A program made the position numbers and the translations under genes. A stretch of DNA of 64,000 nt, from NCBI GenBank assembly GCA_026395815.1, contig JAPLXZ010000012.1, forward strand, positions 487 through 64,486, in the 5' to 3' direction. The stretch comes from Candidatus Pacearchaeota archaeon. GTDB lineage: Archaea; Nanobdellota; Nanobdellia; Pacearchaeales; GW2011-AR1. Shown piece after piece: positions 6,966 through 64,000 of this stretch. Position 1 is the first letter of the stretch. The number at the start of each line of letters is the position of its first letter. Below the pieces are notes generated by a model. The model was not told the DNA's origin. It made no database searches and saw nothing but the letters and a program-made list of their open reading frames with translations.

Positions 6966-7598
6966 TTATATTATAAATATTGCAAATAACATGCCTATCA
7001 AGACAAGAGATGCTAAAAATCCCCACATTGCAAGACTTCCAAAGAAAATTTTATTTCCATCTAAATCTGAAATTGGAAGCATGTTAAAGAAAGCATAATA
7101 GATATTCAATCTTGCAAACATGGGAAAACCAATAAAATAACCGATTATTGCTGAAACCAGATTTATCACAATTCCTGCCATAGCAATTAAACCTAGGTGA
7201 TATTCTGTAATCTCAGAAAAAGTATAAAGCCCATACCTCTTTGCAGCCTTGTAGATTCTTGGCTTGATGTCAAAAACAAGAGAAGCCATCCAAACAAAAT
7301 TCTTGAATGGGAAAAAGATTAATTTTGACAAAACTGGAAAAAACGCTCCTGCAGGAAAAGCCTTTTTGAAATGCTGTCCAAGTTTAAAGCCATATCTTCT
7401 AATCCCCCAAATTTTCATTTCTATTTCTGAATCTAACTGAAAAGCCATAAACTTTTTTGCAGCTACATTCAAGATGACAATAATAGATATCGAAGAAAAT
7501 ACATACAAAAGATTTTTCCAGTCTTCTAAAAGGGCTGATGAAACGCTTATTAAAATTATAATTAATGCAATAACCGCAATTTCTTTTTTGTTTACCAT
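6966..7598 (-). CDS. polytopic membrane protein, site-2-protease (M50)-like but lacking HExxH
   Basis: The C-terminal FNMLPISDLDGNKIF resembles the NxxPxxxLDG motif of M50 proteases. No HExxH is present anywhere (AAKKF sits at the expected place). Confidence 0.4.
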   Translation of the reverse strand: MVNKKEIAVIALIIILISVSSALLEDWKNLLYVFSSISIIVILNVAAKKFMAFQLDSEIEMKIWGIRRYGFKLGQHFKKAFPAGAFFPVLSKLIFFPFKNFVWMASLVFDIKPRIYKAAKRYGLYTFSEITEYHLGLIAMAGIVINLVSAIIGYFIGFPMFARLNIYYAFFNMLPISDLDGNKIFFGSLAMWGFLASLVLIGMLFAIFII

Positions 7599-7993: not shown

Positions 7994-8497
7994 ATGGCTG
8001 AAGAGACGACATTTTTACAGCATTGGATTTTTACTCAATTTTTATTTCCTTTTTTGTTAATTTTCTTTATAGTTTTTGCAATTCTTGAAAAGACGAAACT
8101 TTTTGGAGATGGCAAGAAACAAATTAATGCACTCACTGCTTTTGTTATTGGTTTGATTTTTGTTGGAGCAGTTTATCCAAAACTTGTAGTAACAAACATG
8201 GTCTTATTTTTAACAATAGCACTTGTAGTAGTTTTTGTTGTTTTGTTAATATGGGGGTTTATTTTTGGAGATATTAAAGAAGGATTCGAATTAGAAAAAT
8301 GGATGAAGTGGATTTTAGGAGGTATCACAGGGATAGCCATTGTTGGTGGAGTTATTTGGGCTACTGGACTTTGGGCAGGAGCAGGTGATTTTCTCAAACA
8401 AGGGTTGACTCAAAATATTATAACAAACGTTGCATTTGTTGTTGTTATTGCAATTGCTTTAGCATTGGTTTTAATCGGCCCTAAAAAATCATCATAA
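7994..8497 (+). CDS. membrane protein (paralog of 8548..9108)
   Basis: 4-5 predicted TM helices. The N-terminus FLFPFLLIFFIVFAILEKTKLF aligns with LLPFLLIFALVFGILMRIKVF of the next gene. Confidence 0.6.
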   Translation: MAEETTFLQHWIFTQFLFPFLLIFFIVFAILEKTKLFGDGKKQINALTAFVIGLIFVGAVYPKLVVTNMVLFLTIALVVVFVVLLIWGFIFGDIKEGFELEKWMKWILGGITGIAIVGGVIWATGLWAGAGDFLKQGLTQNIITNVAFVVVIAIALALVLIGPKKSS

Positions 8498-20323: not shown

Positions 20324-21169
20324 ATGCAAGAGGTAATTTTTTTATGGGCATTGGCTTTAGTGTGGATTGTATTTGCAGTCTTTCAAGATTTGAAAACAAG
20401 GGAAATCGCAAATTGGCTTAATTTCTCTTTGGTGATATTTGCTTTGGCATTCAGATTTTTTTATTCTCTTTTTTACAATGATGGATTTTCTTTTTTTTAT
20501 AATGGCTTAATTGGCTTGGCAGTTTTTTTTATGATAGGAAATCTACTTTACTATGGAAAAATGTTTGCTGGAGGAGACGCTAAATTAATGATAGCTCTTG
20601 GGGCAATATTGCCAGTTTCTTTAGATATTCTTTCCAATCTAAAAAACTTCCTTATTTTCTTTTTAATTTTTCTTCTTGTTGGTTCTTTTTACACTCTTGC
20701 AACGAGTTCATTTTTCTGTCTAAAAAATTTTGATTCTTTTAAAAAAGAATTTTCAAAGAAATTAAAAGAAAAAAAGAGATTGATTTGTGTTGTTATATTT
20801 ATTGGATTAGTCTTAATTTGTTTAGGATTTATTCATTTCCTCTTTCTTTTTTTGGGAATTTCCACTTTTATTATGGTTTATCTGTATTTATATGCAAAAG
20901 CAGTTGATGAAGCGTGTATGATAAAATCAACTAACACAAAAAAATTGACAGAAGGAGATTGGTTGTATAAAGATTTGATTATTGGAACAAAAACGATTAG
21001 GGCAAATTGGGATGGTTTAACTAAACAAAATATAAGAGATATAAAAAAGAAATTTAAAACAGTAAGAGTAAGACAAGGAATTCCTTTCACACCAGTTTTT
21101 TTACTAAGCTTTATTGTTTTTGTTGTTGTTAATATACTCAAAATAGATTTATGGAATTCTTTTTGGTAA
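20324..21169 (+). CDS. A24-family prepilin/preflagellin peptidase (FlaK/PibD/EppA-like)
   Basis: It has the two catalytic Asp motifs in TM context (FQDLKTREIANW and FAGGDAKLM). The protein is polytopic. Confidence 0.8.
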   Translation: MQEVIFLWALALVWIVFAVFQDLKTREIANWLNFSLVIFALAFRFFYSLFYNDGFSFFYNGLIGLAVFFMIGNLLYYGKMFAGGDAKLMIALGAILPVSLDILSNLKNFLIFFLIFLLVGSFYTLATSSFFCLKNFDSFKKEFSKKLKEKKRLICVVIFIGLVLICLGFIHFLFLFLGISTFIMVYLYLYAKAVDEACMIKSTNTKKLTEGDWLYKDLIIGTKTIRANWDGLTKQNIRDIKKKFKTVRVRQGIPFTPVFLLSFIVFVVVNILKIDLWNSFW

Positions 21170-55058: not shown

Positions 55059-55586
55059 CTATTTTCCAAATCCAGAACAATAATCTTTGTAGATTTGTGA
55101 ATATTTCTCTTTAAGATTTCCATACTCTTCTCTTATTCTTTCATTCCCTTTTTTATATTCTTCTTTACTTATGTATCTCTTTTCATATGCTCCTTTTAAA
55201 GAAAAAACTCGTAACTTAAGGTTTTCAACACTACTAACAATCTCTCTTGACTTTGCGTCTAAACTTTTAATCTTGTTTTCTGTCTTTTCTAAATTATTAA
55301 CAAGTCCCTTAAGAGACATCAATCCGAGTAATACAAACATGCTTGTTAGTGTACTGAGTGTTAGGCTTATTAATTTTCCTGCAGAAAACATAGATTCTAT
55401 GTTTATTATTCTTCCAAGAGTATAAAATATTGCTGGAATAGATGAAATTAAAAAGAGTATCAATGCATTTTTTAATTCTCCTGTAGTTTTTTTTATAATC
55501 TCTGTGCATATAAGAATTCCTATGAGTATTATAAATAATCTTATTATTGCTACTGGCAGTTCTAAATAATAAATTGCAAATTCCAT
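55059..55586 (-). CDS. membrane protein with C-terminal coiled coil
   Basis: About four N-terminal TM helices followed by a heptad-rich K/E tail. It is the last gene of the same-strand surface-protein cluster. Confidence 0.5.
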   Translation of the reverse strand: MEFAIYYLELPVAIIRLFIILIGILICTEIIKKTTGELKNALILFLISSIPAIFYTLGRIINIESMFSAGKLISLTLSTLTSMFVLLGLMSLKGLVNNLEKTENKIKSLDAKSREIVSSVENLKLRVFSLKGAYEKRYISKEEYKKGNERIREEYGNLKEKYSQIYKDYCSGFGK

Positions 55587-57304
55587 TATCTACCTCTTCT
55601 TAATAGATTAGCCCTTAAAAGGACATTTTTATCTATCTTATAATCACTTTCTCCCTGTTTTTTAACTTTCCTTTTTCTAATCATAATAATTATTATAAAC
55701 AAAACCATGAAGACAGCTAAAGCTATTGTTGCTATCTCAAGAGGAATTGTCGGAGCTTTTCCTACATTAAACAAGACGCTTGAACTTGCTACTTTTCCAT
55801 TATAAGTTATTGTTATATAAATTACATATCTGCCGAATGCTGCTGTTTCTGGTATTTTAAACTCTTTTACATAACTTAACTTGGTTTGTACTGCAAGGTC
55901 TTCTCTTTCAGTCAATATTTCATTTCCTTTCCAATCCATTATTTTATACTCAGCAAAAACATCAACTTCTTTTTCAATTTCTCCTAAGTTATAGATTTCC
56001 ATTTCTGCAAGTAAGTCTTCACCTGGCATTACATAACTATACTTTTGCGGAATCTTGACTGTAGCATCGAATATCGGTTCTGCAGATTCTACTTCTATTA
56101 TTGTTAGAATTCTTTTCTCCTGTCCACTTGCTGTTACATTTATTTCCCCTATATATAAGTTAGGAATGGTTTCCTTTTGCACCATTATCTCTAAGGGTAT
56201 AACTCTTGATTCTTTTGGAGCTAATTTAAATTTCTTTTCGCTTATAAAAACAAATTGTTCAATTTTTGAGATTCCTATTTCTACATCTAATTCTTTATCT
56301 CCTGTATTAACTATCAATACCTGTTCTCTTGTAGTATGCCCCTGTTGTAATTTTACTTTTATTTCATCTTCACTTAAACTAAAGTCACTTATCTTTGCTT
56401 TTCCTCCTCCACCACCTCCTCCTCCACCGCCACCAGGACCAGTTACTACTGTTACTTCAGTTGTATTTTCTTCTGCAGAATAAGAAACTGAAAACTGAGT
56501 TACATTAAACTTTAAAGTTCCTCCAGAATAATTTTCTTTTGTGCAAATAAAAGAGGGGCAGACTTCTCCATCTATTAGTATTCTTGCGTCTGAAAAAGTC
56601 AAGCCATAAAGCCATAATGTTACCTTTTTGTTAAAGTTAGGCAAGGCTGTTGAATTTAGCGCAATCCTATTTGAAGAAATATTAGCATTTGTATCTAAGT
56701 CGACTTGATTATCATTAAAATTTTCATCAGCAGTCATGTTTATATTTTCATTAAACAGAATCTTTCCAGAATTTGTATTTTCCAGTATGATTCCGCTTAA
56801 GTTTTGCACATCTTCATAAGACAATATTGTGAAATTTGTCGAGTTTCCTTTCTTAGTTCCTTTCCATTCTTCATGGATTATTTGAAATCTGGTTGAATTT
56901 ACAAAAAAACTTACATTTTGTTCTGTTACATCCCCATAAGTATTATTTGCATAAAGATAAAGCATATATCCTCCATCTGTTGCATTGAAATAAAAAGGAG
57001 AAGATAAAGTAATATTCGTTCCTGAATTAAGATTGTACCAAACTGCTTGTTGCCCGCTTGCAGAATAATTTAGAGGAATTGAAAATCCATTAAAATATGT
57101 CTCATTTTGTGGAGAGATTATTGAGAGTATTGCAGTTGTAGTGGGAAGAATGTATATGGACATATCTGTTGTTTGAGCTGATGCTTTGCCAGTGATGTCT
57201 CCTGTTTTTTCAGTTTTCTTTGGCAAGTTTTTTATTATTATAAAACTGATTAGAAATAAAACTATTAATATAAACAGGAACAAAAATACCCAACCTCTTT
57301 TCAT
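55586..57304 (-). CDS. cell-surface protein (N-terminal signal/anchor, sequon-rich, poly-Gly linker, C-terminal TM anchor)
   Basis: It has many N-x-S/T sequons and the run GPGGGGGGGGGGGKAK. A CARDB/NEW3-like segment is present (LIVNTGDKELDVEIG). The C-terminal TM is followed by RKRKVKK. Confidence 0.6.
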   Translation of the reverse strand: MKRGWVFLFLFILIVLFLISFIIIKNLPKKTEKTGDITGKASAQTTDMSIYILPTTTAILSIISPQNETYFNGFSIPLNYSASGQQAVWYNLNSGTNITLSSPFYFNATDGGYMLYLYANNTYGDVTEQNVSFFVNSTRFQIIHEEWKGTKKGNSTNFTILSYEDVQNLSGIILENTNSGKILFNENINMTADENFNDNQVDLDTNANISSNRIALNSTALPNFNKKVTLWLYGLTFSDARILIDGEVCPSFICTKENYSGGTLKFNVTQFSVSYSAEENTTEVTVVTGPGGGGGGGGGGGKAKISDFSLSEDEIKVKLQQGHTTREQVLIVNTGDKELDVEIGISKIEQFVFISEKKFKLAPKESRVIPLEIMVQKETIPNLYIGEINVTASGQEKRILTIIEVESAEPIFDATVKIPQKYSYVMPGEDLLAEMEIYNLGEIEKEVDVFAEYKIMDWKGNEILTEREDLAVQTKLSYVKEFKIPETAAFGRYVIYITITYNGKVASSSVLFNVGKAPTIPLEIATIALAVFMVLFIIIIMIRKRKVKKQGESDYKIDKNVLLRANLLRRGR

Positions 57305-57340
57305 CTATTAAAAAGAAATGCAATATATTTAAAGATTATT

Positions 57341-57886
57341 CTATCTCTTCTTTTTCTTATTAACTTTTCTCTTTTTCATTAAGAAAACAACAGCTCCAAC
57401 AGCAATTAAAAGACCTGCTCCAATTCCAACAATCAAAATTGGATTCAATTGGGTTTTTTCCTCTGTTTTAGCTACAACTAATACTTCAAAATCCTGGTCT
57501 ATTGCTGTTCCAAATGCTATTCCTGTTCCTCCTCCAGAGGTTATTGTCCTTATTGATACCATCACAGGATAAACATTGCCTAATGAAGCATCAGAAGGAA
57601 TTCTTATTCTTATTGGAATTTCTGTATCTTTTGTTCCAAATTTGACTAAATATTTGTTATCTCCAATAATACTTGCTACTTCATTTCCTTTTGTTATATC
57701 TGCCTGAACAGTTATATCTCCTCCTCCAACCATATTCTGCAATCTAAAAGAAGTCATACTTGTTTCTCCAGGCGATATTGTGAAAGGCCCATTAGAACCT
57801 GCGACTCCAAAAGCAAAAACTGCGCTTGCTAAAGATAAAATTAAGAATAGAGAAGTTACAAATAAGGTTATTTTTTTAGTTGTCAT
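57341..57886 (-). CDS. small cell-surface protein with C-terminal TM anchor
   Basis: Signal peptide, a beta-rich body, and a C-terminal LIVGIGAGLLIAVGAVVFLMKKRK. Confidence 0.55.
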   Translation of the reverse strand: MTTKKITLFVTSLFLILSLASAVFAFGVAGSNGPFTISPGETSMTSFRLQNMVGGGDITVQADITKGNEVASIIGDNKYLVKFGTKDTEIPIRIRIPSDASLGNVYPVMVSIRTITSGGGTGIAFGTAIDQDFEVLVVAKTEEKTQLNPILIVGIGAGLLIAVGAVVFLMKKRKVNKKKKR

Positions 57887-57889
57887 TTT

Positions 57890-58849
57890 TTATACTTTTA
57901 TTGTCCATGCTCCTGAATTGTTTGTTGCGTATGTTTGTGAAGTAATCATTGGAACATTGGGTATGCAAAAATACAATGTTTCCTGCCCCAAACTTGTTGC
58001 ATTTGCAGCAGATACATTTCCTCTTGATAAATTTGCTCCTACTATTCCTACATCAGTTGCATTCACTAATAATGTTCCTGTATTAGTGCCTACTGTATTG
58101 TTTGCACACATGCCAACATCACTATTAGCATCCCAACTTGTAGTGAAGTTACTGACATTTAAATATTTTGTAGTAGTAACCATTCCTTGAAGGTCAATTG
58201 CATTTATTTTTATCCAGTTAGGATTTATGAGGACATTTCCTGTATTATTCAATGTAGTGTTTTGTTTTGATGTTTCGTTGGTGTCTCCTGGAGTTAAAGC
58301 AGGCCAAGTTGTCAAATTAGGATTGATAATTATTCCCTTTAAAAATCCATAAACAAATGCTTTTGATGTGTTAGATATAACAGTTCTGTTTCCTAAATCA
58401 CTGGCACTTACATTTATAGTCCAAGTTGAATTGTCATCCCAATACCACATTCTTACAGTGCAAGTATAATTCTTGGAAGTTGCATTTGACTGTCCCATTG
58501 TAGAGCATGCACTTAAATTTGTTCTTTCTACGCCTGTTTGGTTGAAAAGTGCTATAACACTTGAATCATTCAAATCACTAGCCCCATCGATATCAATCAC
58601 AGTTACAATAAAAGGAACATCAGTAGGAAGACCTTCTGTTGGGTCAACAGTTGCTCCGATAAGAGTATTATTCCATATTATAAACTTCACTGGATTAGTT
58701 CCAGTAATTGTTACACTAAAATTTGCTGGACGAGTTGAAGCCCATCCTGTTATTTTGCTCATCCATCCTGTGCTTATTCCAACATAGAGTATTATAACAA
58801 TTACAATTAAAATAGATACAAAATAAATTACAAACCTCTTTTTAACCAT
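57890..58849 (-). CDS. secreted protein, paralog of the membrane-proximal ectodomain of the giant LamG protein
   Basis: Residues about 60-319 align closely with the giant ORF, for example IINPNLTTWP...NTTLNNTGNV...INAIDLQGM...GANLSRGNVSAANATSLGQETLYFCIP...YATNNS.AWTI. It ends ...AWTIKV*. Confidence 0.65.
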   Translation of the reverse strand: MVKKRFVIYFVSILIVIVIILYVGISTGWMSKITGWASTRPANFSVTITGTNPVKFIIWNNTLIGATVDPTEGLPTDVPFIVTVIDIDGASDLNDSSVIALFNQTGVERTNLSACSTMGQSNATSKNYTCTVRMWYWDDNSTWTINVSASDLGNRTVISNTSKAFVYGFLKGIIINPNLTTWPALTPGDTNETSKQNTTLNNTGNVLINPNWIKINAIDLQGMVTTTKYLNVSNFTTSWDANSDVGMCANNTVGTNTGTLLVNATDVGIVGANLSRGNVSAANATSLGQETLYFCIPNVPMITSQTYATNNSGAWTIKV

Positions 58850-58896
58850 CTTTATTCCTTTTAATTAAGTTTTTTTAGTTTTTAAAGATTTCTTCA

Positions 58897-61800
58897 TTAT
58901 TCTCTTTTATTATTATTATTAAATAAATGGTTTTTCTTTATTATCCTTGAATAGGTTGTCCAAATATTCCTTTGGTCTCTGTTAAGCAATCTGGCTATTT
59001 CACTGTATTTCATTCCTCTTTCTTTTAAGTATAAGATTATAGACTCTAAGACTGTAAGATTATTATCCTTGAATATTGAAATAGGCATCAGCATTCCTTT
59101 TTCCTTAATATCAAATGATTCTCCTTTCTTTTCTTTTGCTTTCTTGTAACTCGTCCAGATTGTTCTTTCATTTCTTCCAATCTCTTTTGCAATTTCCCTG
59201 TAATTCATGTTTAGATTTTCTTTCATGTATTTAGCTATAGATTCTAAGCATCCGAGTTTGCTTGAGAAGATGGTTATAGGAATTTTTAATTCTTCTTCAG
59301 ATTTTATCATTTCTAAAATTTCTTTTCTGCTTATCTTGTACCTGCTCTTTAATTTTTCAATTATTATTTCCAGCAATTCTACTTTGTTTAGCGAGTATTC
59401 TTCTTTTAATTCGTCTGTGATTAAATTTAATGCTTCAAGAAGTCTCTCGTTCTTTAGCAATTCTTTATTTTTCTTCCTTCTCTTAGGAATTAATGCAATT
59501 AACAGTATTCTTATTGTCCATGCTTCCGAATTGTTTGTTGCGTATGTCTGAGAATAAATCATTGGAACTTTTGGAATGCAAAAATACAATGTTTCTTGGC
59601 CTAAACTTGTTGCATTTGCAGCAGATACATTTCCTCTTGATAAATTTGCTCCTACTATTCCCACATATGTTGCATTTACAAGCAATGTTCCTGTATTACC
59701 TTGACTGATGTTTGCACACATGCCCGAATCACTATTCGCGTTCCAACTTGCAGTTATATTGCTTACATTGAGGTATTTATTAGTCGTGCTCATTCCTTGA
59801 AGGTCAATTGCATTTATCTGTATGTTTCCAGAATTAATCATTACATTTCCTGTGTTATTCAATGTTGTATTCTGTTTTGATGTTTTGTTGGTGTCTCCCT
59901 GCACTAAAGTAGGCCAGGTAGTTAAATTTGGATTAATGATGATTGCCTTTAAAAAATTATATTCGAATGTAACTGTGTTATTTGTTGTTGAATTCTCTGA
60001 ATTGTCTTTTGCAGAAACTGTTATGTTCCATGTTCCATTTGCATCCCAATACCACATTCTTATTGCACAAGTAAAGTTAGATTCATTTCCTGCACTCTGT
60101 TCACTTATGACTGAACAGCTTGAATTCTCCCTTATTGCTTCTCCTGTTCTTGTGAACGACGCATTTATTCCTGAATTATTTATGTTGCTGTATCCGTTTA
60201 CATCATAAACTGTTGCATTAAAGTTTATATTTACAACGCCTGCTTCTGTTGGGTCTGTTGCAGGAATAACAGAAACAAAAGTTAAATTAGGAGCTTGATT
60301 GGCTGCTGCAGTAATCGTAACAGTTCTCTGTTCTGTCTGGTTTACATTTCCTGCTGCGTCAATTGCATAGGCAGTGAAGTTATATTGTCCAGCACTTAAT
60401 CCTGTAAAGTTGTTGTATAATTTGTAAGTTCCTGCATTGTAGGAAGCATTAATTTCTTCTGGAGATAATGCTCTTGAGAAAATCATTACCTCGTCGATGG
60501 AACCATTGAACTGTTCTCCAGGATACCTGCCTAGAATCAAAGATTCATTAGAAATCGTTGGAGCGTCATTACCAGTTCCAGAAGTCCAAGAACCGCTGAC
60601 ATTAACCCCATCAACATACCATTTAGCAGAAGAACTTGTTCCGAATGTATAAGTAAAAACAGTATGATGCCATGTACTTGAAGTAAATACTGCAGATGAT
60701 GTTTGAAATATTTTCCATCCTCCTCCAGAATTGTAGTAAAATACTAATTCCCGTGCTGCTCCAGCAGTTCCGCTATTAGTTTGAGTGCCATAATTACAAT
60801 TACTACTACTACCTTTTGTAAGACTAGCCTGACCACTTGTCGTGGGATTGTCTGACTTTATCCACATTGAAATAGTAATATTATCTCCTAAGTCAAAATC
60901 TAATGAACTGTTACTTCCCGGGTCTGGAATATTCAAATAATCATTTATTCCGTCAAATTCCAATGCCTTTCCTCTTGGTCCAGAGACTAAATTCCCTGTT
61001 CCTAATCCTCCAGTAAAATTTCCATGATTTCCCCATGTTGAATTATCATAAACTCCTGTTGCATTATAAGAATCCATGCTCCACCATCCTACTAAATTCC
61101 TGTTCCAGTCAATAAATGCAGAATGCTCATTTGCATCACTTGTAGAAACATTGACATAAACAGATGTTGCTGTTTGTGATGAAGCATTATCAGGAGTAGG
61201 GTCTGTAAAGTTTATGTTTGGTTTTATTATGTCAATTCCAAATGTAATTGTTGATTTGTTCTCATTTCCTACAGTATCATTTGCCCAGACAGTCACATTA
61301 TGTTTTCCTTCTGCCCATGTTATGTTCGTTATATTCTCACAAATACCTGCTGTTCCTAATGATAAATTTCTTGCCATAGTGTCATTACTATACCAGCAGC
61401 TTCCTATTGCAACATTATCTGAAACAGTGTAATTTACATCTAACCCTGTATTAGAAGAATATGTATTGTTTGAAGGAGTGACTATTGCGATATTTGGCTT
61501 GATTGTTTCAGCCGTAATCGTCACACCTCTCTGTTCTGTCTGATTCACATTTCCTGCTTGGTCAATTGCATAAGCAGTGAAATTGTAGTTCCCAGTTGGC
61601 AATCCTGTGAAGTTGTTGTAATATTGGTTTGCAGAAGCATTATACAATGCTTTAATTTCTTGGGGAGAAAGGACATGGTTGAAAATCATTACTTCGTCAA
61701 GAGAACCATTGACACCTTCTTCAGCATAATCTGGCTGAGGAGCCCCTATATAAAGGTTAAAATTAGTGAGTGTTCCCGAGCCTCCTCCTGATATGCTGGA

Positions 61801-64000
61801 ATTATATATTCCATTTACATATACATCTGACCAGGAAGAATTGATAATGGCGACAGTTAAAAAAAACCATTGATTAGTTGGCATGATATCAGTACTACAC
61901 TGATCTCCCCCATCATACATACAGACTTGCCCAGATGTTGAGAAAAACAGACAGTAATTGACAACACCATACCCACCTTTACAAATAACAACTGGCGCGG
62001 TAGCATATTCTTTAGAATATACCCAACTAGAAAGAGTAAGTGAACCATTAATGTTAATTGACGGAGAGTTTTCTACTGCAATATAATCATAATAACCATC
62101 GAATTCCAGGGCTTCTCCTCTTTTACCTGTAACTAAATTTCCTGTTCCTAATTCACCGCCACTAAAATTTCCAAAGTTGTTCCATGTAGAATTATCATAA
62201 ATCCCACTTGTATTGTAAGAATCCATGCTCCACCATCCTACTAAGCTCCTATTCCAGTCAATAAAAGCAGAATGCTCATTTGCATCAATTGTTGAAACAT
62301 TCACATAAATAGATGTTGCTGTTTGTGACGAAGCATTATCAGGAGTAGGAATTGTGAAATTAATGTTCGGCTTGATTGTATCAATTGTAAATGTAATTGT
62401 TGATTTATTCTCATTTCCTACTGTATCATTCGCCCATACTGTTACATTATGTCTTCCTTCTGCCCATGTTATGTTTGTTATGTTTACACAGCTTCCTGCT
62501 GTTCCTAATAAGTTGTTGTATAATTTGTAAGTTCCTGCATTGTAGGAAGCATTAATTTCTTCAGGTGTTAATGCTCTATTCCAAATCATTACCTCGTCGA
62601 TGGAACCATTGAAATAACCTTCGCTTGGATTATACCTACCGATTACATTCCACCCTTGTTGGTTTGGTGAACCTGAACCAATTATTTTTTGAATACCATC
62701 CACATATATGGAGGCATTTGTTCCGTTATTAGTAACAACTACATAATGCCAATTTCCATCACTAACGTCAACCCCTGTAGTTACAATATAAATATCAATT
62801 CCGCTATTCGTAAGGAATCTAATATTGCCATCAGATTCTACTCTAAATTGATTATTATCTCCGTCGTGGTGTAATATCTGTTGCTCTGATGCAGATGAAG
62901 TATTTATCCATGCAGAAATTGTTATTGTTGTGGTTGTAATGCTTGATATTGCGATATAATCATTAATTCCATCAAACTGTATCGCTTTACCTCTTTTTCC
63001 AGAAATTGTTGTGTTTGTTGCATGATTGTTAAGCACACCATGTCTTCCATAACTTGAATTATCATATACTGTTCCATTTGTTAAAACAGAATCCATGCTC
63101 CACCATCTTACTAAACTTCTATTCCAATCAATAAATGCAGAATGCTCATTTGCATCACTTGTAGAAACATTGACATAAACAGATGTTGCTGTTTGTGATG
63201 AAGCATTATCAGGAGTTGGAACAGTGAAATTAATATCTGGCTTGATTGTATCAATTGTAAATGTAATTGTTGATTTATTCTCATTTCCTACTGTATCATT
63301 CGCCCATACTGTTACATTATGTCTTCCTTCTGCCCATGTTATGTTTGTTATGTTTACACAGCTTCCTGCTGTTCCTAATTTAAATATCATTAATTCGTCT
63401 ATTGTCATATTCATATTTGGATCACTTCCACTGAAGTAGCAATTTGCTCCAATGCAAAATTGGGTTTGGTATCTCTCTCCCAATCCCTCTGCTGCAACAC
63501 CATAGTATGAACCATTAACATAAAGGTCTGTTTTAGTTGAATTGATGAACATAACAGTAATATAAGCCCATTCATTTTTGGGCGGGGAATAAGCTGGAGT
63601 AAAATAAGCTGCATGCATTGGATAAATCGCGAGTTGGCCGTTACTAGCAACCATAACAGCATAATTAGCTGTGTTTGCACCCGTGCCAGTATTAATAATG
63701 CTTGACACATCAATAGGATAACCATATAACTTAACCCAGAATGAAATAGAAATCGGATATGTCAAATTTAATGAGGGATTATATGGCATATAAATCTGAT
63801 CATTCTTTCCATCAAAACTAAATCCCCCGCCCCGCTTTCCAGAACTATTGTAAACTGCTCCATCTATTTTTCCATGATTATTATAACTCGAATTATCATA
63901 AACATCTGTTGAATTTCTATCATCAAAGTTCATCCATAATACTAAACTTCTATCCCAGTCAATAAATGCAGAATGCTCATTTGCATCATTTGTTGAAACA
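58897..64000 (-). CDS. giant LamG-repeat surface protein (5' end beyond window) with C-terminal tail containing two HTH modules
   Basis: The ORF stays open upstream of the Met at 63933 to the window edge (..VSTNDANEHSAFIDWDRSLVLWM..). It has at least four LamG/ConA-like domains (FDG.ND...DEVMI[WF].RAL[ST]PEEI) alternating with Ig-like modules (ITWAEG.HNVTVWANDTVGNENKSTITF). The tail at 58897-59511 has two LuxR/sigma-r4-like HTH modules. Confidence 0.75.
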   Translation of the reverse strand, partial: VSTNDANEHSAFIDWDRSLVLWMNFDDRNSTDVYDNSSYNNHGKIDGAVYNSSGKRGGGFSFDGKNDQIYMPYNPSLNLTYPISISFWVKLYGYPIDVSSIINTGTGANTANYAVMVASNGQLAIYPMHAAYFTPAYSPPKNEWAYITVMFINSTKTDLYVNGSYYGVAAEGLGERYQTQFCIGANCYFSGSDPNMNMTIDELMIFKLGTAGSCVNITNITWAEGRHNVTVWANDTVGNENKSTITFTIDTIKPDINFTVPTPDNASSQTATSVYVNVSTSDANEHSAFIDWNRSLVRWWSMDSVLTNGTVYDNSSYGRHGVLNNHATNTTISGKRGKAIQFDGINDYIAISSITTTTITISAWINTSSASEQQILHHDGDNNQFRVESDGNIRFLTNSGIDIYIVTTGVDVSDGNWHYVVVTNNGTNASIYVDGIQKIIGSGSPNQQGWNVIGRYNPSEGYFNGSIDEVMIWNRALTPEEINASYNAGTYKLYNNLLGTAGSCVNITNITWAEGRHNVTVWANDTVGNENKSTITFTIDTIKPNINFTIPTPDNASSQTATSIYVNVSTIDANEHSAFIDWNRSLVGWWSMDSYNTSGIYDNSTWNNFGNFSGGELGTGNLVTGKRGEALEFDGYYDYIAVENSPSININGSLTLSSWVYSKEYATAPVVICKGGYGVVNYCLFFSTSGQVCMYDGGDQCSTDIMPTNQWFFLTVAIINSSWSDVYVNGIYNSSISGGGSGTLTNFNLYIGAPQPDYAEEGVNGSLDEVMIFNHVLSPQEIKALYNASANQYYNNFTGLPTGNYNFTAYAIDQAGNVNQTEQRGVTITAETIKPNIAIVTPSNNTYSSNTGLDVNYTVSDNVAIGSCWYSNDTMARNLSLGTAGICENITNITWAEGKHNVTVWANDTVGNENKSTITFGIDIIKPNINFTDPTPDNASSQTATSVYVNVSTSDANEHSAFIDWNRNLVGWWSMDSYNATGVYDNSTWGNHGNFTGGLGTGNLVSGPRGKALEFDGINDYLNIPDPGSNSSLDFDLGDNITISMWIKSDNPTTSGQASLTKGSSSNCNYGTQTNSGTAGAARELVFYYNSGGGWKIFQTSSAVFTSSTWHHTVFTYTFGTSSSAKWYVDGVNVSGSWTSGTGNDAPTISNESLILGRYPGEQFNGSIDEVMIFSRALSPEEINASYNAGTYKLYNNFTGLSAGQYNFTAYAIDAAGNVNQTEQRTVTITAAANQAPNLTFVSVIPATDPTEAGVVNINFNATVYDVNGYSNINNSGINASFTRTGEAIRENSSCSVISEQSAGNESNFTCAIRMWYWDANGTWNITVSAKDNSENSTTNNTVTFEYNFLKAIIINPNLTTWPTLVQGDTNKTSKQNTTLNNTGNVMINSGNIQINAIDLQGMSTTNKYLNVSNITASWNANSDSGMCANISQGNTGTLLVNATYVGIVGANLSRGNVSAANATSLGQETLYFCIPKVPMIYSQTYATNNSEAWTIRILLIALIPKRRKKNKELLKNERLLEALNLITDELKEEYSLNKVELLEIIIEKLKSRYKISRKEILEMIKSEEELKIPITIFSSKLGCLESIAKYMKENLNMNYREIAKEIGRNERTIWTSYKKAKEKKGESFDIKEKGMLMPISIFKDNNLTVLESIILYLKERGMKYSEIARLLNRDQRNIWTTYSRIIKKNHLFNNNNKRE
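62371..62509. repeat. 139-bp perfect intragenic repeat, copy B
   Basis: Identical to 63241..63379 (CTTGATTGTATCAATTGTAAATG...GCTGTTCCTAAT). The flanks are near-identical, and a diverged third copy lies at about 61210-61360. Confidence 0.9.
63241..63379. repeat. 139-bp perfect intragenic repeat, copy A
   Basis: Identical to 62371..62509, 870 bp apart, in the same reading frame of the LamG giant gene. Confidence 0.9.

What the first reader, a model, noticed from the sequence alone, without database searches (positions are those of the whole stretch)
58897..59511. Giant extracellular LamG protein continues, without a stop, into a 200-aa tail with two tandem LuxR/sigma-region-4-like HTH modules
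After the ectodomain ends (...YATNNSEAWTI), the ORF reads RILLIALIPKRRKKNKE. That is only about 8-12 hydrophobic residues, whereas the C-terminal anchors of neighbouring proteins have about 20. A helical segment follows, and then two repeats:
- IPITIFSSKLGCLESIAKYMKENLNMNYREIAKEIGRNERTIWTSYKKAKEK (about 59134-59283)
- MPISIFKDNNLTVLESIILYLKERGMKYSEIARLLNRDQRNIWTTYSRIIKK (about 58933-59088)

Their pattern (L..LE.i..yL...g.sy.EIA..l.r...TIw..y.r..kK) is that of LuxR/ECF-sigma region-4 DNA-binding HTH modules. A surface adhesin fused to cytoplasmic DNA-binding modules would suggest a contact-sensing, membrane-tethered transcription factor, perhaps released by proteolysis. I know of no described archaeal example. 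An alternative is a recent deletion that fused a truncated anchor to a downstream regulator gene, or an assembly error in this repeat-rich gene.
Basis: partly seen in the sequence, partly recalled or inferred. Interest (0 to 1): 0.65.

Follow-up and report, generated by a model that had tools for sequence, protein, structure and literature searches.

The report
Giant surface protein with DNA-binding tail
A giant cell-surface glycoprotein of a tiny DPANN (Pacearchaeota-type) archaeon really does continue, past an unusually short membrane segment, into two DNA-binding domains, a design shared by many related species that most likely lets the protein control its own gene.

Summary
ORF 58897-63999(-) runs without a stop from a LamG/Ig ectodomain through ILLIALIP + KRRKKNK into a 190-aa tail: three helices and two sigma-70-region-4-type HTH modules. 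Pfam scores it 39 bits (cut-off 25.7). AlphaFold gives pLDDT 88.

The fusion is not an assembly error or a recent deletion.
- Contigs from three runs in two studies span the junction.
- All 66 long proteins among the 150 best database hits carry this tail at their extreme C-terminus.
- 32 complete relatives were fetched. Most begin with the same about 90-aa cytoplasmic hairpin and a 20-aa membrane anchor.
- The short hydrophobic segment is a family trait (median 9 residues).

More distant relatives encode the same double HTH as a separate gene directly upstream of a giant gene. One of these giants stops exactly at the junction. A tree needs only one fusion event.

In 27 of 32 complete relatives, 17-bp sites (TACATAnATAATAAGTA) flank the TATA box and abut the start codon of the giant gene, and occur almost nowhere else.

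The best reading is a membrane-anchored autoregulator, probably a repressor. DNA binding, topology and any proteolytic release are inferred. This gene's own promoter lies beyond the contig end. I found no published description.

The parts
59506..63999 (-). Ectodomain of the giant protein, cut off at the 5' end by the window and contig end. It holds four LamG (Laminin_G_3) units alternating with Big_13 Ig-like units and is rich in N-glycosylation sequons.
   Evidence: Pfam: Laminin_G_3 at 268 bits with 4 stretches, Big_13 at 77 bits with 5 stretches. The database copy P0104 (1754 aa, contig 64,648 bp) also starts mid-domain.
59506..60255 (-). C-terminal ectodomain module (residues 1249-1498), which ends in the strand ...SEAWTIRI.
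   Evidence: It is 66% identical to the whole extracellular part of the downstream 319-aa protein. It is far less conserved between genomes (about 36%) than the tail (about 72%).
59485..59508 (-). Short hydrophobic segment ILLIALIP, the presumed stop-transfer or membrane-crossing segment.
   Evidence: 8 uncharged residues; Kyte-Doolittle 19-residue maximum 0.81. Family median is 9 residues (IQR 8-10), against 20 for the N-terminal anchors of the same proteins. AlphaFold models it as coil with pLDDT about 55.
59464..59484 (-). Polybasic cluster KRRKKNK, a positive-inside signal.
   Evidence: Read directly from the sequence. A run of 5-8 K/R residues sits at this position in the homologs.
59284..59463 (-). 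Helical linker of three helices. Stand-alone homologs have it too.
   Evidence: AlphaFold helices at tail residues 13-38, 43-58 and 62-70. It aligns with the N-terminal part of stand-alone proteins such as P0044.
59128..59283 (-). HTH module 1 (IPITIF...RNERTIWTSYKKAKEK).
   Evidence: Pfam HTH_38 and Sigma70_r4_2 stretches. Modelled as a beta strand plus three helices with pLDDT above 96.
58933..59088 (-). HTH module 2 (MPISIF...RDQRNIWTTYSRIIKK).
   Evidence: Best Sigma70_r4_2 stretch, tail residues 152-193. Foldseek finds local matches to RcsB, sigma-E region 4 and the archaeal factor 8hnp at rmsd 0.6-2.2 A.
58897..58932 (-). C-terminal 11 residues and the TAA stop codon.
57890..58849 (-). 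Downstream 319-aa paralog of the giant's C-terminal ectodomain module. It has an N-terminal membrane anchor and stops at ...AWTIKV*, exactly where the giant gene reads on.
   Evidence: An equivalent gene follows the giant gene in 34 of 39 related loci (36 give a hit, but L019 and L024 are artefacts of a misplaced junction). Identity is 41-87%, and in nearly all the gene stops 0-6 residues after the W-x-I-x-I strand.
55059..57886 (-). Rest of the co-directional cluster: an anchored 181-aa protein, a 572-aa protein with N- and C-terminal anchors, and a 175-aa membrane/coiled-coil protein.
   Evidence: The same gene order and sizes follow the giant gene in L001 (321, 187, 552, 198 aa) and in the unfused locus L071 (313, 196, 508 aa).

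Best explanation
This is a member of a large, conserved and unannotated DPANN family.

Architecture in complete members:
- an about 90-aa cytoplasmic helical hairpin at the N-terminus
- a normal 20-residue membrane anchor
- a variable giant glycosylated ectodomain
- a conserved end ...G-[SA]-W-x-I-[KR]
- a very short hydrophobic stretch followed by 5-8 K/R residues
- a cytoplasmic tail of three helices and two (sometimes four) sigma-70-region-4/LuxR-like HTH modules

The tail is the fused form of a regulator that more distant relatives encode as the first gene of the same operon.

Proposed mechanism (inferred): each double HTH binds a 17-bp site, TACATAnATAATAAGTA. In relatives, strong copies lie at about -68..-52 and -17..-1 of the giant gene's apparently leaderless promoter. 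They bracket a TATA box that itself sits in a degenerate third copy. Occupying these sites would block TBP/TFB/RNA polymerase, so the finished surface protein would feed back on its own operon. This could happen from the membrane, as with ToxR-type regulators.

Shown: the architecture, its conservation, the HTH fold, and the association of the motif with these promoters.

Inferred: that the tail is what binds the motif, that the effect is repression, and that the short segment crosses the membrane.
For: ORF and domains.

Junction: confirmed by contigs from three runs in two studies.

Family size and placement:
- 2076 representative proteins match at E<=1e-3 and 1675 at E<=1e-10.
- All 66 proteins of 700 aa or more among the best 150 carry the tail within 25 aa of the C-terminus.
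- The N-terminal domain and junction motif are conserved.
- The short segment is a family trait.

Fold: tail model pLDDT 88.3, pTM 0.70. Local matches to DNA-bound sigma-4, RcsB and the archaeal factor 8hnp, and to the tandem-HTH proteins Cbp1 and SETMAR.

Operator-like sites: 59 of 73 PSSM hits in 1.12 Mb lie within -130..0 of complete giant-gene starts, in 27 of 32 loci. The spacing is 51-52 bp in 17 loci, and the proximal site ends at -1 or 0 of the ATG in 23 of 29.

Split-gene evidence:
- 11 of 14 stand-alone double-HTH genes lie directly upstream of a giant surface-protein gene.
- They are preceded by related, partly palindromic repeats.
- The L071 giant ends ...GSWTIGII* with no tail.
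- Fused forms sit on one side of a single tree branch, SH-aLRT 97.

Synteny with the window.

The tail is about 72% identical between genomes whose adjacent ectodomain modules are only about 36% identical.
Against: - No DNA-binding test was possible.
- This gene's own promoter lies beyond the contig end, and the window holds no copy of the motif.
- The hydrophobic segment fails the classical transmembrane criterion: 0.81 here, family median 1.08, and only 11% reach 1.6. AlphaFold does not model it as a helix.
- Another factor could bind the motif, or it could be a promoter or leader element in its own right.
- Recognition helices and motif are both nearly invariant, so no covariation could be shown.
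- No RNA or protein data exist.
Confidence: 0.6

Rival explanations
1. Signal-dependent release, Notch/SREBP/anti-sigma style. The tail is inactive while tethered. It is cut free within or next to the weak, often proline-containing membrane segment when the ectodomain engages a host or surface, or is pulled. Only then does it reach the promoter. This shares the DNA target with the best explanation but differs in how the signal is passed on.
For: The membrane segment is sub-threshold in length and conserved; 41 of 106 family members have Pro in its last 5 residues. Stand-alone soluble homologs show that the domain works untethered. A paralog of the juxtamembrane module evolves in concert with it, which suggests a regulated interaction outside the cell. 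An M50/S2P-like protease is encoded at 6966-7598(-).
Against: There is no cleavage motif, no protease linked to the cluster, and no protein data. The M50 hit is below Pfam's cut-off (24.6 versus 27.2 bits), lies 52 kb away, and such proteases are housekeeping genes. Membrane-bound regulators are known to act without release (PMC10269533). DPANN cells are tiny, so DNA is never far from the membrane (general knowledge).
Confidence: 0.2
2. The tail is not a sequence-specific regulator. It is a cytoplasmic anchoring or scaffolding module, for example tethering the nucleoid or other proteins to the attachment site, or pairing with the N-terminal hairpin. The promoter repeats would then be bound by something else.
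For: HTH folds can mediate protein contacts. A conserved cytoplasmic N-terminal hairpin of unknown function exists in the same proteins. No binding data exist.
Against: The motif is almost exclusive to promoters of genes or operons that encode this HTH, whether fused or stand-alone. The recognition helices (R-D/N-x-R-T/N-I-W-T-x-Y) are the most conserved part of the tail. The 17-bp site with two half-sites about 11 bp apart fits a tandem HTH.
Confidence: 0.1
3. The short hydrophobic stretch does not stop translocation, so the tail ends up outside the cell, for example to bind extracellular DNA or to be delivered to a host.
For: The segment fails the classical transmembrane criterion in 89% of family members. 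In unfused relatives the same module is the free extracellular C-terminus.
Against: A run of 5-8 K/R residues directly after the stretch is a strong positive-inside stop-transfer signal (established membrane-protein topology rules). Stand-alone homologs have no signal peptide. Conserved sites on the cell's own promoter point to a cytoplasmic target.
Confidence: 0.05
4. Artefact or recent accident: a mis-assembly across the repeat, or a recent deletion that fused a truncated anchor to a downstream regulator gene.
For: The gene is rich in repeats. A 59-nt exact repeat shared with the paralog lies about 90 nt upstream of the junction.
Against: Contigs from three runs in two studies, plus a related strain, span the junction. 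The same junction motif, short segment and tail occur across the family. The alternative path through the repeat would give a closed loop, not a linear genome (reasoned).
Confidence: 0.02

Closest known systems
Transmembrane transcription regulators (ToxR, CadC, TcpP, TfoS/ChiS), the class surveyed in bacteria and archaea by Demey et al. 2023 (PMC10269533)
   Same: One polypeptide joins an extracytoplasmic domain, a membrane segment and a cytoplasmic DNA-binding domain. Regulation can proceed from the membrane.
   Different: - The DNA-binding domain is C-terminal rather than N-terminal.
- It is a tandem sigma-4-like HTH rather than an OmpR-type winged helix.
- Family ectodomains reach about 5,900 aa and look like adhesins.
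- A second, N-terminal anchor and cytoplasmic hairpin are present.
- The membrane segment next to the DNA-binding domain has only about 9 hydrophobic residues.
- The likely target is the protein's own promoter.
- The survey text mentions neither DPANN nor sigma-type domains.
ECF sigma / anti-sigma operons
   Same: The HTH fold is that of sigma region 4. In the unfused relatives the gene order is regulator first, then a protein with an N-terminal cytoplasmic domain, a membrane anchor and an extracytoplasmic domain, under a promoter carrying the regulator's presumed sites. This is the classical autoregulated sigma/anti-sigma layout.
   Different: Archaea have no sigma factors. Sigma region 2 is absent, and NCBIfam sigma70-ECF scores 24.1 bits against a cut-off of 42.9. 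The N-terminal hairpin gives only generic coiled-coil matches, all at E above 0.5. In the window's type the two partners are fused into one chain.
Notch, SREBP, ATF6 and bacterial RsgI/SEAL-type regulated proteolysis of membrane-tethered factors (PMC10556640)
   Same: A large extracellular receptor or adhesin part is linked to an intracellular transcription-factor part. A juxtamembrane module may sense engagement or force.
   Different: There is no evidence of cleavage here and no homology to these proteins. The juxtamembrane module was not folded or compared with SEA/SEAL domains.
Archaeal sigma-4-like HTH regulators (8hnp/8hno, 'Archaeal transcription regulator') and the tandem-HTH DNA binders Cbp1 (2lvs) and SETMAR (7s03)
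   Same: Local fold identity: 8hnp aligns over 48 columns at rmsd 0.6 A and 40% identity. Like Cbp1 and SETMAR, the tail places several small HTH units in tandem on one chain to read a longer site.
   Different: Those are soluble proteins. Sequence similarity is not significant: the profile search of PDB gives E=0.15 at best.

Membership tests
Sigma-70 region 4 / LuxR-type HTH fold (Pfam PF08281 Sigma70_r4_2) | Profile match above the curated cut-off | tested here: met
   39.0 bits against 25.7, with two stretches. The homologs carry precomputed PF08281 hits.
Sigma-70 region 4 / LuxR-type HTH fold (Pfam PF08281 Sigma70_r4_2) | Three-helix HTH fold that superposes on DNA-bound members | tested here: met
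   Module pLDDT above 96. RcsB 5vxn at rmsd 0.7 A, SigD 3vfz at 0.8 A, sigma-E region 4 with -35 DNA (2h27) at 2.2 A. Whole-tail Foldseek E-values are weak (0.026 or worse) because each unit is small.
Sigma-70 family sigma factor | Region 2 (core binding and -10 recognition) and a family-level profile score | tested here: not met
   No Sigma70_r2 hit. NCBIfam sigma70-ECF scores 24.1 bits against a cut-off of 42.9.
LuxR/GerE family (PF00196) | GerE profile match | tested here: not met
   PF00196 is absent from the hits at E<=1.
Transmembrane transcription regulator (as defined in PMC10269533: a DNA-binding domain plus at least one predicted transmembrane region) | Predicted DNA-binding domain | tested here: met
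Transmembrane transcription regulator (as defined in PMC10269533: a DNA-binding domain plus at least one predicted transmembrane region) | Predicted transmembrane region in the same protein | tested here: inconclusive
   Complete relatives have a clear N-terminal anchor, Kyte-Doolittle median 2.55. The window's copy lacks its N-terminus. The segment next to the tail scores 0.81, below the 1.6 criterion. No dedicated transmembrane predictor was available.
Transmembrane transcription regulator (as defined in PMC10269533: a DNA-binding domain plus at least one predicted transmembrane region) | Binds DNA and regulates transcription while in the membrane | not testable with these tools
   Only indirect support: conserved 17-bp sites on the promoters of family members.
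DPANN giant-protein/double-HTH family (defined here) | Junction ...G-[SA]-W-x-I-[KR], 8-15 hydrophobic residues, a polybasic run, a helical linker and two HTH modules at the extreme C-terminus | tested here: met
DPANN giant-protein/double-HTH family (defined here) | Downstream paralog of the last ectodomain module that stops at the junction, followed by the conserved cluster | tested here: met
DPANN giant-protein/double-HTH family (defined here) | N-terminal cytoplasmic hairpin domain, and TACATAnATAATAAGTA sites on the protein's own promoter | not testable with these tools
   The 5' end and promoter lie beyond the contig end.

The most novel reading that the evidence does not exclude
The giant protein is a contact or force sensor of an episymbiotic archaeon. 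The sub-threshold, often proline-containing membrane segment would be a deliberate weak link. The co-evolving 319-aa copy of the juxtamembrane module, or the N-terminal cytoplasmic hairpin acting like an anti-sigma domain, would hold the system in an off state. Engagement or pulling of the ectodomain would then free or reposition the double-HTH tail and switch the surface-protein operon. That would make it an archaeal, single-chain analogue of Notch or of sigma/anti-sigma signalling.
Probability: 0.15. Interest if true: 0.9.

Novelty: new variant of a known kind. Interest (0 to 1): 0.68.

Why it matters
DPANN archaea are tiny, mostly uncultured symbionts whose giant surface proteins are thought to mediate contact with hosts. 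How they sense or regulate anything is almost unknown.

This family directly links the largest surface protein to a DNA-binding domain and to a precisely placed, conserved promoter element. That makes the hypothesis concrete and testable with a 190-aa protein and a 17-bp DNA site.

The family has more than 1,600 representative clusters at E<=1e-10. It occurs in both split and fused forms, which gives a natural experiment on why a regulator would be welded to the protein it controls.

It would also extend membrane-bound transcription regulators to a new topology: a C-terminal tandem sigma-4-like domain, a loop-shaped giant ectodomain, and a membrane segment far shorter than normal.

Tried and rejected
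I could not look for this gene's 5' end, its promoter, paralogous tails or other copies of the motif in the genome.
- No RNA runs hold the stretch.
- The motif search in the window found nothing.
- The first related-loci run, with the 61-sequence alignment, failed for lack of conserved columns. A 13-sequence alignment worked.
- The profile search of PDB sequences gave only non-significant hits, best E=0.15.
- Whole-tail Foldseek gave no hit at E<=0.001; only local HTH matches were informative.
- The N-terminal hairpin was folded to test an anti-sigma-like idea. It gave only generic coiled-coil matches, so that idea stays speculative.
- Covariation between recognition helices and operator variants was uninformative because both are nearly invariant.
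- A full-length fold to look for contacts between the N-domain and the tail was not run, because the tool reports no inter-domain confidence.
- An internal start codon that would give a separate tail protein was considered. No Met, and no start conserved in the homologs, lies near the junction.
- Five literature searches found no description of this architecture.
Full report
**1. The observation**

On the minus strand an ORF runs from the window's end (63999) to a TAA at 58897-58899, 1700 codons with no stop.

- Pfam finds four LamG units and five Big_13 Ig-like units in the body.
- After ...YATNNSEAWTIRI the frame reads ILLIALIP (59485-59508) and KRRKKNK (59464-59484).
- A 60-aa helical stretch follows, then two repeats at 59128-59283 and 58933-59088.
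- The repeats are 24/53 identical, E=1e-13.
- The 204-aa tail alone scores 39.0 bits on Sigma70_r4_2 (cut-off 25.7), with supporting HTH_23 and HTH_38 hits.
- The hydrophobic stretch is short. Its best 19-residue Kyte-Doolittle mean is 0.81, against 2.7-3.2 for the anchors of neighbouring proteins.

The window's gene is cut at its 5' end. The database copy (P0104, 1754 aa, contig 64,648 bp) also begins mid-domain.

**2. Not an artefact**

- Logan contigs from three sequencing runs in two studies each contain a 1614-nt contig that covers 58700-59632 with 0-1 differences.
- A related strain in another study has a 198-nt contig across 59429-59626.
- A 59-nt exact repeat shared with the downstream paralog (59603-59661) breaks the unitigs. 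The alternative path through it would close a loop rather than give a linear genome.

The design is also widespread.

- An exhaustive search with the tail finds 2076 representative proteins at E<=1e-3 and 1675 at E<=1e-10.
- Among the best 150, 66 are 700 aa or longer (up to 5919 aa). In all 66 the match ends within 25 residues of the C-terminus.
- The junction is conserved...SQ[ST]YS[ST]xxxG[SA]W[TE]I[KR], then 8-15 hydrophobic residues (often ...LIPA), then 5-8 K/R.
- Across 106 long homologs the uncharged run has median 9 (IQR 8-10), and the distance from W to the polybasic run is 13. The N-terminal anchors of the same proteins have median 20.
- Only 11% of junction segments reach the classical 1.6 hydropathy threshold, against 83% of N-terminal anchors.

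The 'truncated anchor' is therefore a family feature, not a deletion in this genome.

**3. The full architecture and locus**

Complete relatives begin with a conserved about 90-aa cytoplasmic domain (MGRTRLAKA..EL.KRI...YL..L...Y..G.ISY..Y.E...KK.DGRT..EWI.YYD.YI..C) that runs into a 20-residue anchor.

- AlphaFold models it as a long helical hairpin (pLDDT 92).
- It gives only generic coiled-coil matches and no Pfam hit.
- Both ends of the protein would therefore be cytoplasmic, and the giant ectodomain would form a loop.
- Ectodomains differ widely between relatives: LamG, parallel beta-helix, Ig-like, FG-GAP, peptidase and MAM domains.

The locus is syntenic.

- In L001 and L002 the giant gene is transcribed divergently from a class-II aminoacyl-tRNA synthetase gene.
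- In L001 it is followed by genes of 321, 187, 552 and 198 aa. The window has 319, 181, 572 and 175 aa.
- L002 continues into the same DUF362/ferredoxin and metallo-beta-lactamase genes as the window.

**4. The downstream paralog**

Gene 57890-58849(-) has an N-terminal anchor followed by a 66%-identical copy of the giant's last 250 ectodomain residues. It stops at AWTIKV*, exactly where the giant gene reads on. DNA similarity, 83-98% over the last 120 nt, ends at that codon.

- The same arrangement holds in 34 of 39 related loci, with 41-87% identity. In nearly all the gene stops 0-6 residues after the W-x-I-x-I strand.
- Within a genome the two copies are 66-74% identical. Orthologous modules from different genomes are only 31-56% identical. 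That is concerted evolution of a fast-evolving module.
- In contrast, the cytoplasmic tail is about 72% identical between the window and L001, whose adjacent modules are 36% identical.

**5. The tail's fold**

With a 61-sequence alignment AlphaFold gives pLDDT 88.3 and pTM 0.70. The model has three linker helices, then two units of a beta strand plus three helices at pLDDT above 96. The first 12 residues (hydrophobic and polybasic) are coil at pLDDT about 55.

Foldseek finds no global match at E<=0.001, but it finds precise local ones:

| Match | Aligned columns | rmsd (A) |
|---|---|---|
| RcsB DNA-binding domain | 42 | 0.7 |
| SigD region 4 | 43 | 0.8 |
| Sigma-E region 4 on -35 DNA | 48 | 2.2 |
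| Archaeal regulator 8hnp (40% identity) | 48 | 0.6 |

Over longer spans it matches the tandem-HTH proteins Cbp1 and SETMAR. The tail is not a sigma factor. Region 2 is absent, and NCBIfam sigma70-ECF is below its cut-off.

**6. Split and fused forms**

Among 80 loci fetched from species genomes (Nanoarchaeota, Pacearchaeota and Woesearchaeota MAGs), 14 encode the double HTH as a stand-alone protein of 150-200 aa.

- In 11 of the 14 this gene lies directly upstream of a large surface-protein gene, often overlapping its start.
- In L071 the downstream giant (1146 aa) has the same N-terminal domain. It ends ...GSWTIGII* with no membrane segment or tail, and is followed by the paralog (313 aa), a 196-aa gene and a 508-aa gene.
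- A tree of the HTH pair puts all 38 fused forms on one side of a branch (SH-aLRT 97; one change needed; none of 500 label shuffles did as well).

The fusion is therefore old, probably arose once, and joins two partners that already worked together.

**7. A conserved DNA element on the giant genes' promoters**

Earlier notes of this scan on other genomes claimed a repeat in these promoters. I tested the claim independently.

- In the 32 complete giant genes, the upstream 220 nt show TACATAnATAATAAGTA by eye in about 28.
- A PSSM built from these sites finds 73 hits of 14 bits or more in 1.12 Mb, both strands. Of these, 59 lie within -130..0 on the coding strand of complete giant-gene starts, in 27 of 32 loci.
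- Most of the remaining hits sit where a giant gene's start was probably mis-called, or upstream of stand-alone HTH genes.
- Strong copies sit at about -68..-52 and -17..-1, with 51-52 bp spacing in 17 loci. The proximal core ends at -1 or 0 of the ATG in 23 of 29 loci.
- Between them lies a weaker copy, TACATAnATTTATAAG, that contains the TATA box about 26-33 nt before the ATG. This implies a leaderless transcript (inference).
- Stand-alone HTH genes are preceded by related repeats, some perfectly palindromic (TACTTAnnnnnTAAGTA).

The two half-sites lie about 11 bp apart, which suits two HTH units on one chain. The window itself has no copy. Its own promoter lies beyond the contig end, so for this gene the element is predicted, not seen.

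**8. Mechanism**

The best-supported reading is that the double HTH, stand-alone or fused, is the autoregulator of the giant-protein operon. Sites over the transcription start, and bracketing the TATA box, are the classical positions of archaeal repressors. I therefore favour negative feedback, exerted from the membrane as with ToxR-type regulators.

What fusion adds is open. Possibilities are:
- strict stoichiometry with finished, inserted protein
- action in cis, while the coupled transcription-translation-insertion complex holds the gene at the membrane
- signal-dependent release

The sub-threshold membrane segment, the co-evolving paralog and the conserved N-terminal hairpin all hint at something more elaborate than a passive tether. 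Nothing here shows cleavage or contact sensing. An M50-like protease at 6966-7598(-) is below Pfam's cut-off and is unlinked.

**9. Comparison and novelty**

By the broad definition of Demey et al. (a DNA-binding domain plus a transmembrane region; PMC10269533) this is a transmembrane transcription regulator. That survey mentions neither DPANN nor sigma-type domains.

It differs from described members in:
- topology
- DNA-binding fold
- ectodomain size
- the very short membrane segment
- the presumed self-target

The operon logic of the unfused form resembles ECF sigma/anti-sigma pairs. The fused form resembles Notch-type receptors in layout only.

Five literature searches found no description of this family. 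Public annotations call these proteins hypothetical, 'sigma24 family' or 'LamG domain-containing'. Other agents of this scan reached similar conclusions on other genomes. Those notes are not independent evidence, but their promoter claim held up when I tested it here.

**10. Limits**

- There are no RNA data.
- The read evidence is from contigs, not raw reads.
- DNA binding, topology and the direction of regulation are all inferred.

Noticed in passing
window 57890-58849 versus 59506-60255: The 319-aa paralog and the giant's last ectodomain module evolve in concert. They are 66-74% identical within a genome but only 31-56% identical between orthologs of different genomes. DNA identity rises to 83-98% in the last 120 nt before the junction, which suggests a gene-conversion tract.
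   Followed up: partly
window 6966-7598 (-): A 210-aa membrane protein with a weak Peptidase_M50 (site-2 protease) match (24.6 bits, cut-off 27.2) and an NxxPxxxxDG-like motif. It is not linked to the cluster.
   Followed up: partly
window 20324-21169 (+): A 281-aa Peptidase_A24 (prepilin/preflagellin peptidase) homolog at 43.5 bits. This fits the pilin-signal surface proteins encoded elsewhere in the window.
   Followed up: no
L024, about 8000-8473 (Woesearchaeota MAG contig CAYHJV010000008.1): The tail of this homolog carries an in-frame stop inside the linker (...LKEKYSLNNK*TTEV...). It could be a sequencing error, a pseudogene, or a secondary split of giant and regulator.
   Followed up: no
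L011, 4354-5897 (also proteins P0268 and P0276): Operator sites lie about 1.5 kb upstream of the first Met of the tail-bearing ORF. The intervening N-terminal sequence looks like a Hint/intein-type domain (...YGVDVENDIVLVRRG...SGNS). The giant gene may carry an intein-like insertion.
   Followed up: no
L074 10630-10671: Two strong operator matches on opposite strands lie immediately downstream of the giant gene's stop. They may belong to the promoter of a second gene of this kind.
   Followed up: no
L034, L049, L041 and proteins P0002, P0003: Some family members carry four HTH modules (two pairs) instead of two. The number of promoter sites does not obviously change with this.
   Followed up: partly
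N-terminal domain of complete relatives (e.g. L021 7022-7351): The conserved cytoplasmic hairpin contains a SHOCT-like motif (G-x-IS-Y-x-x-Y-x-E). In some lineages it is His-rich. Its function is unknown.
   Followed up: partly
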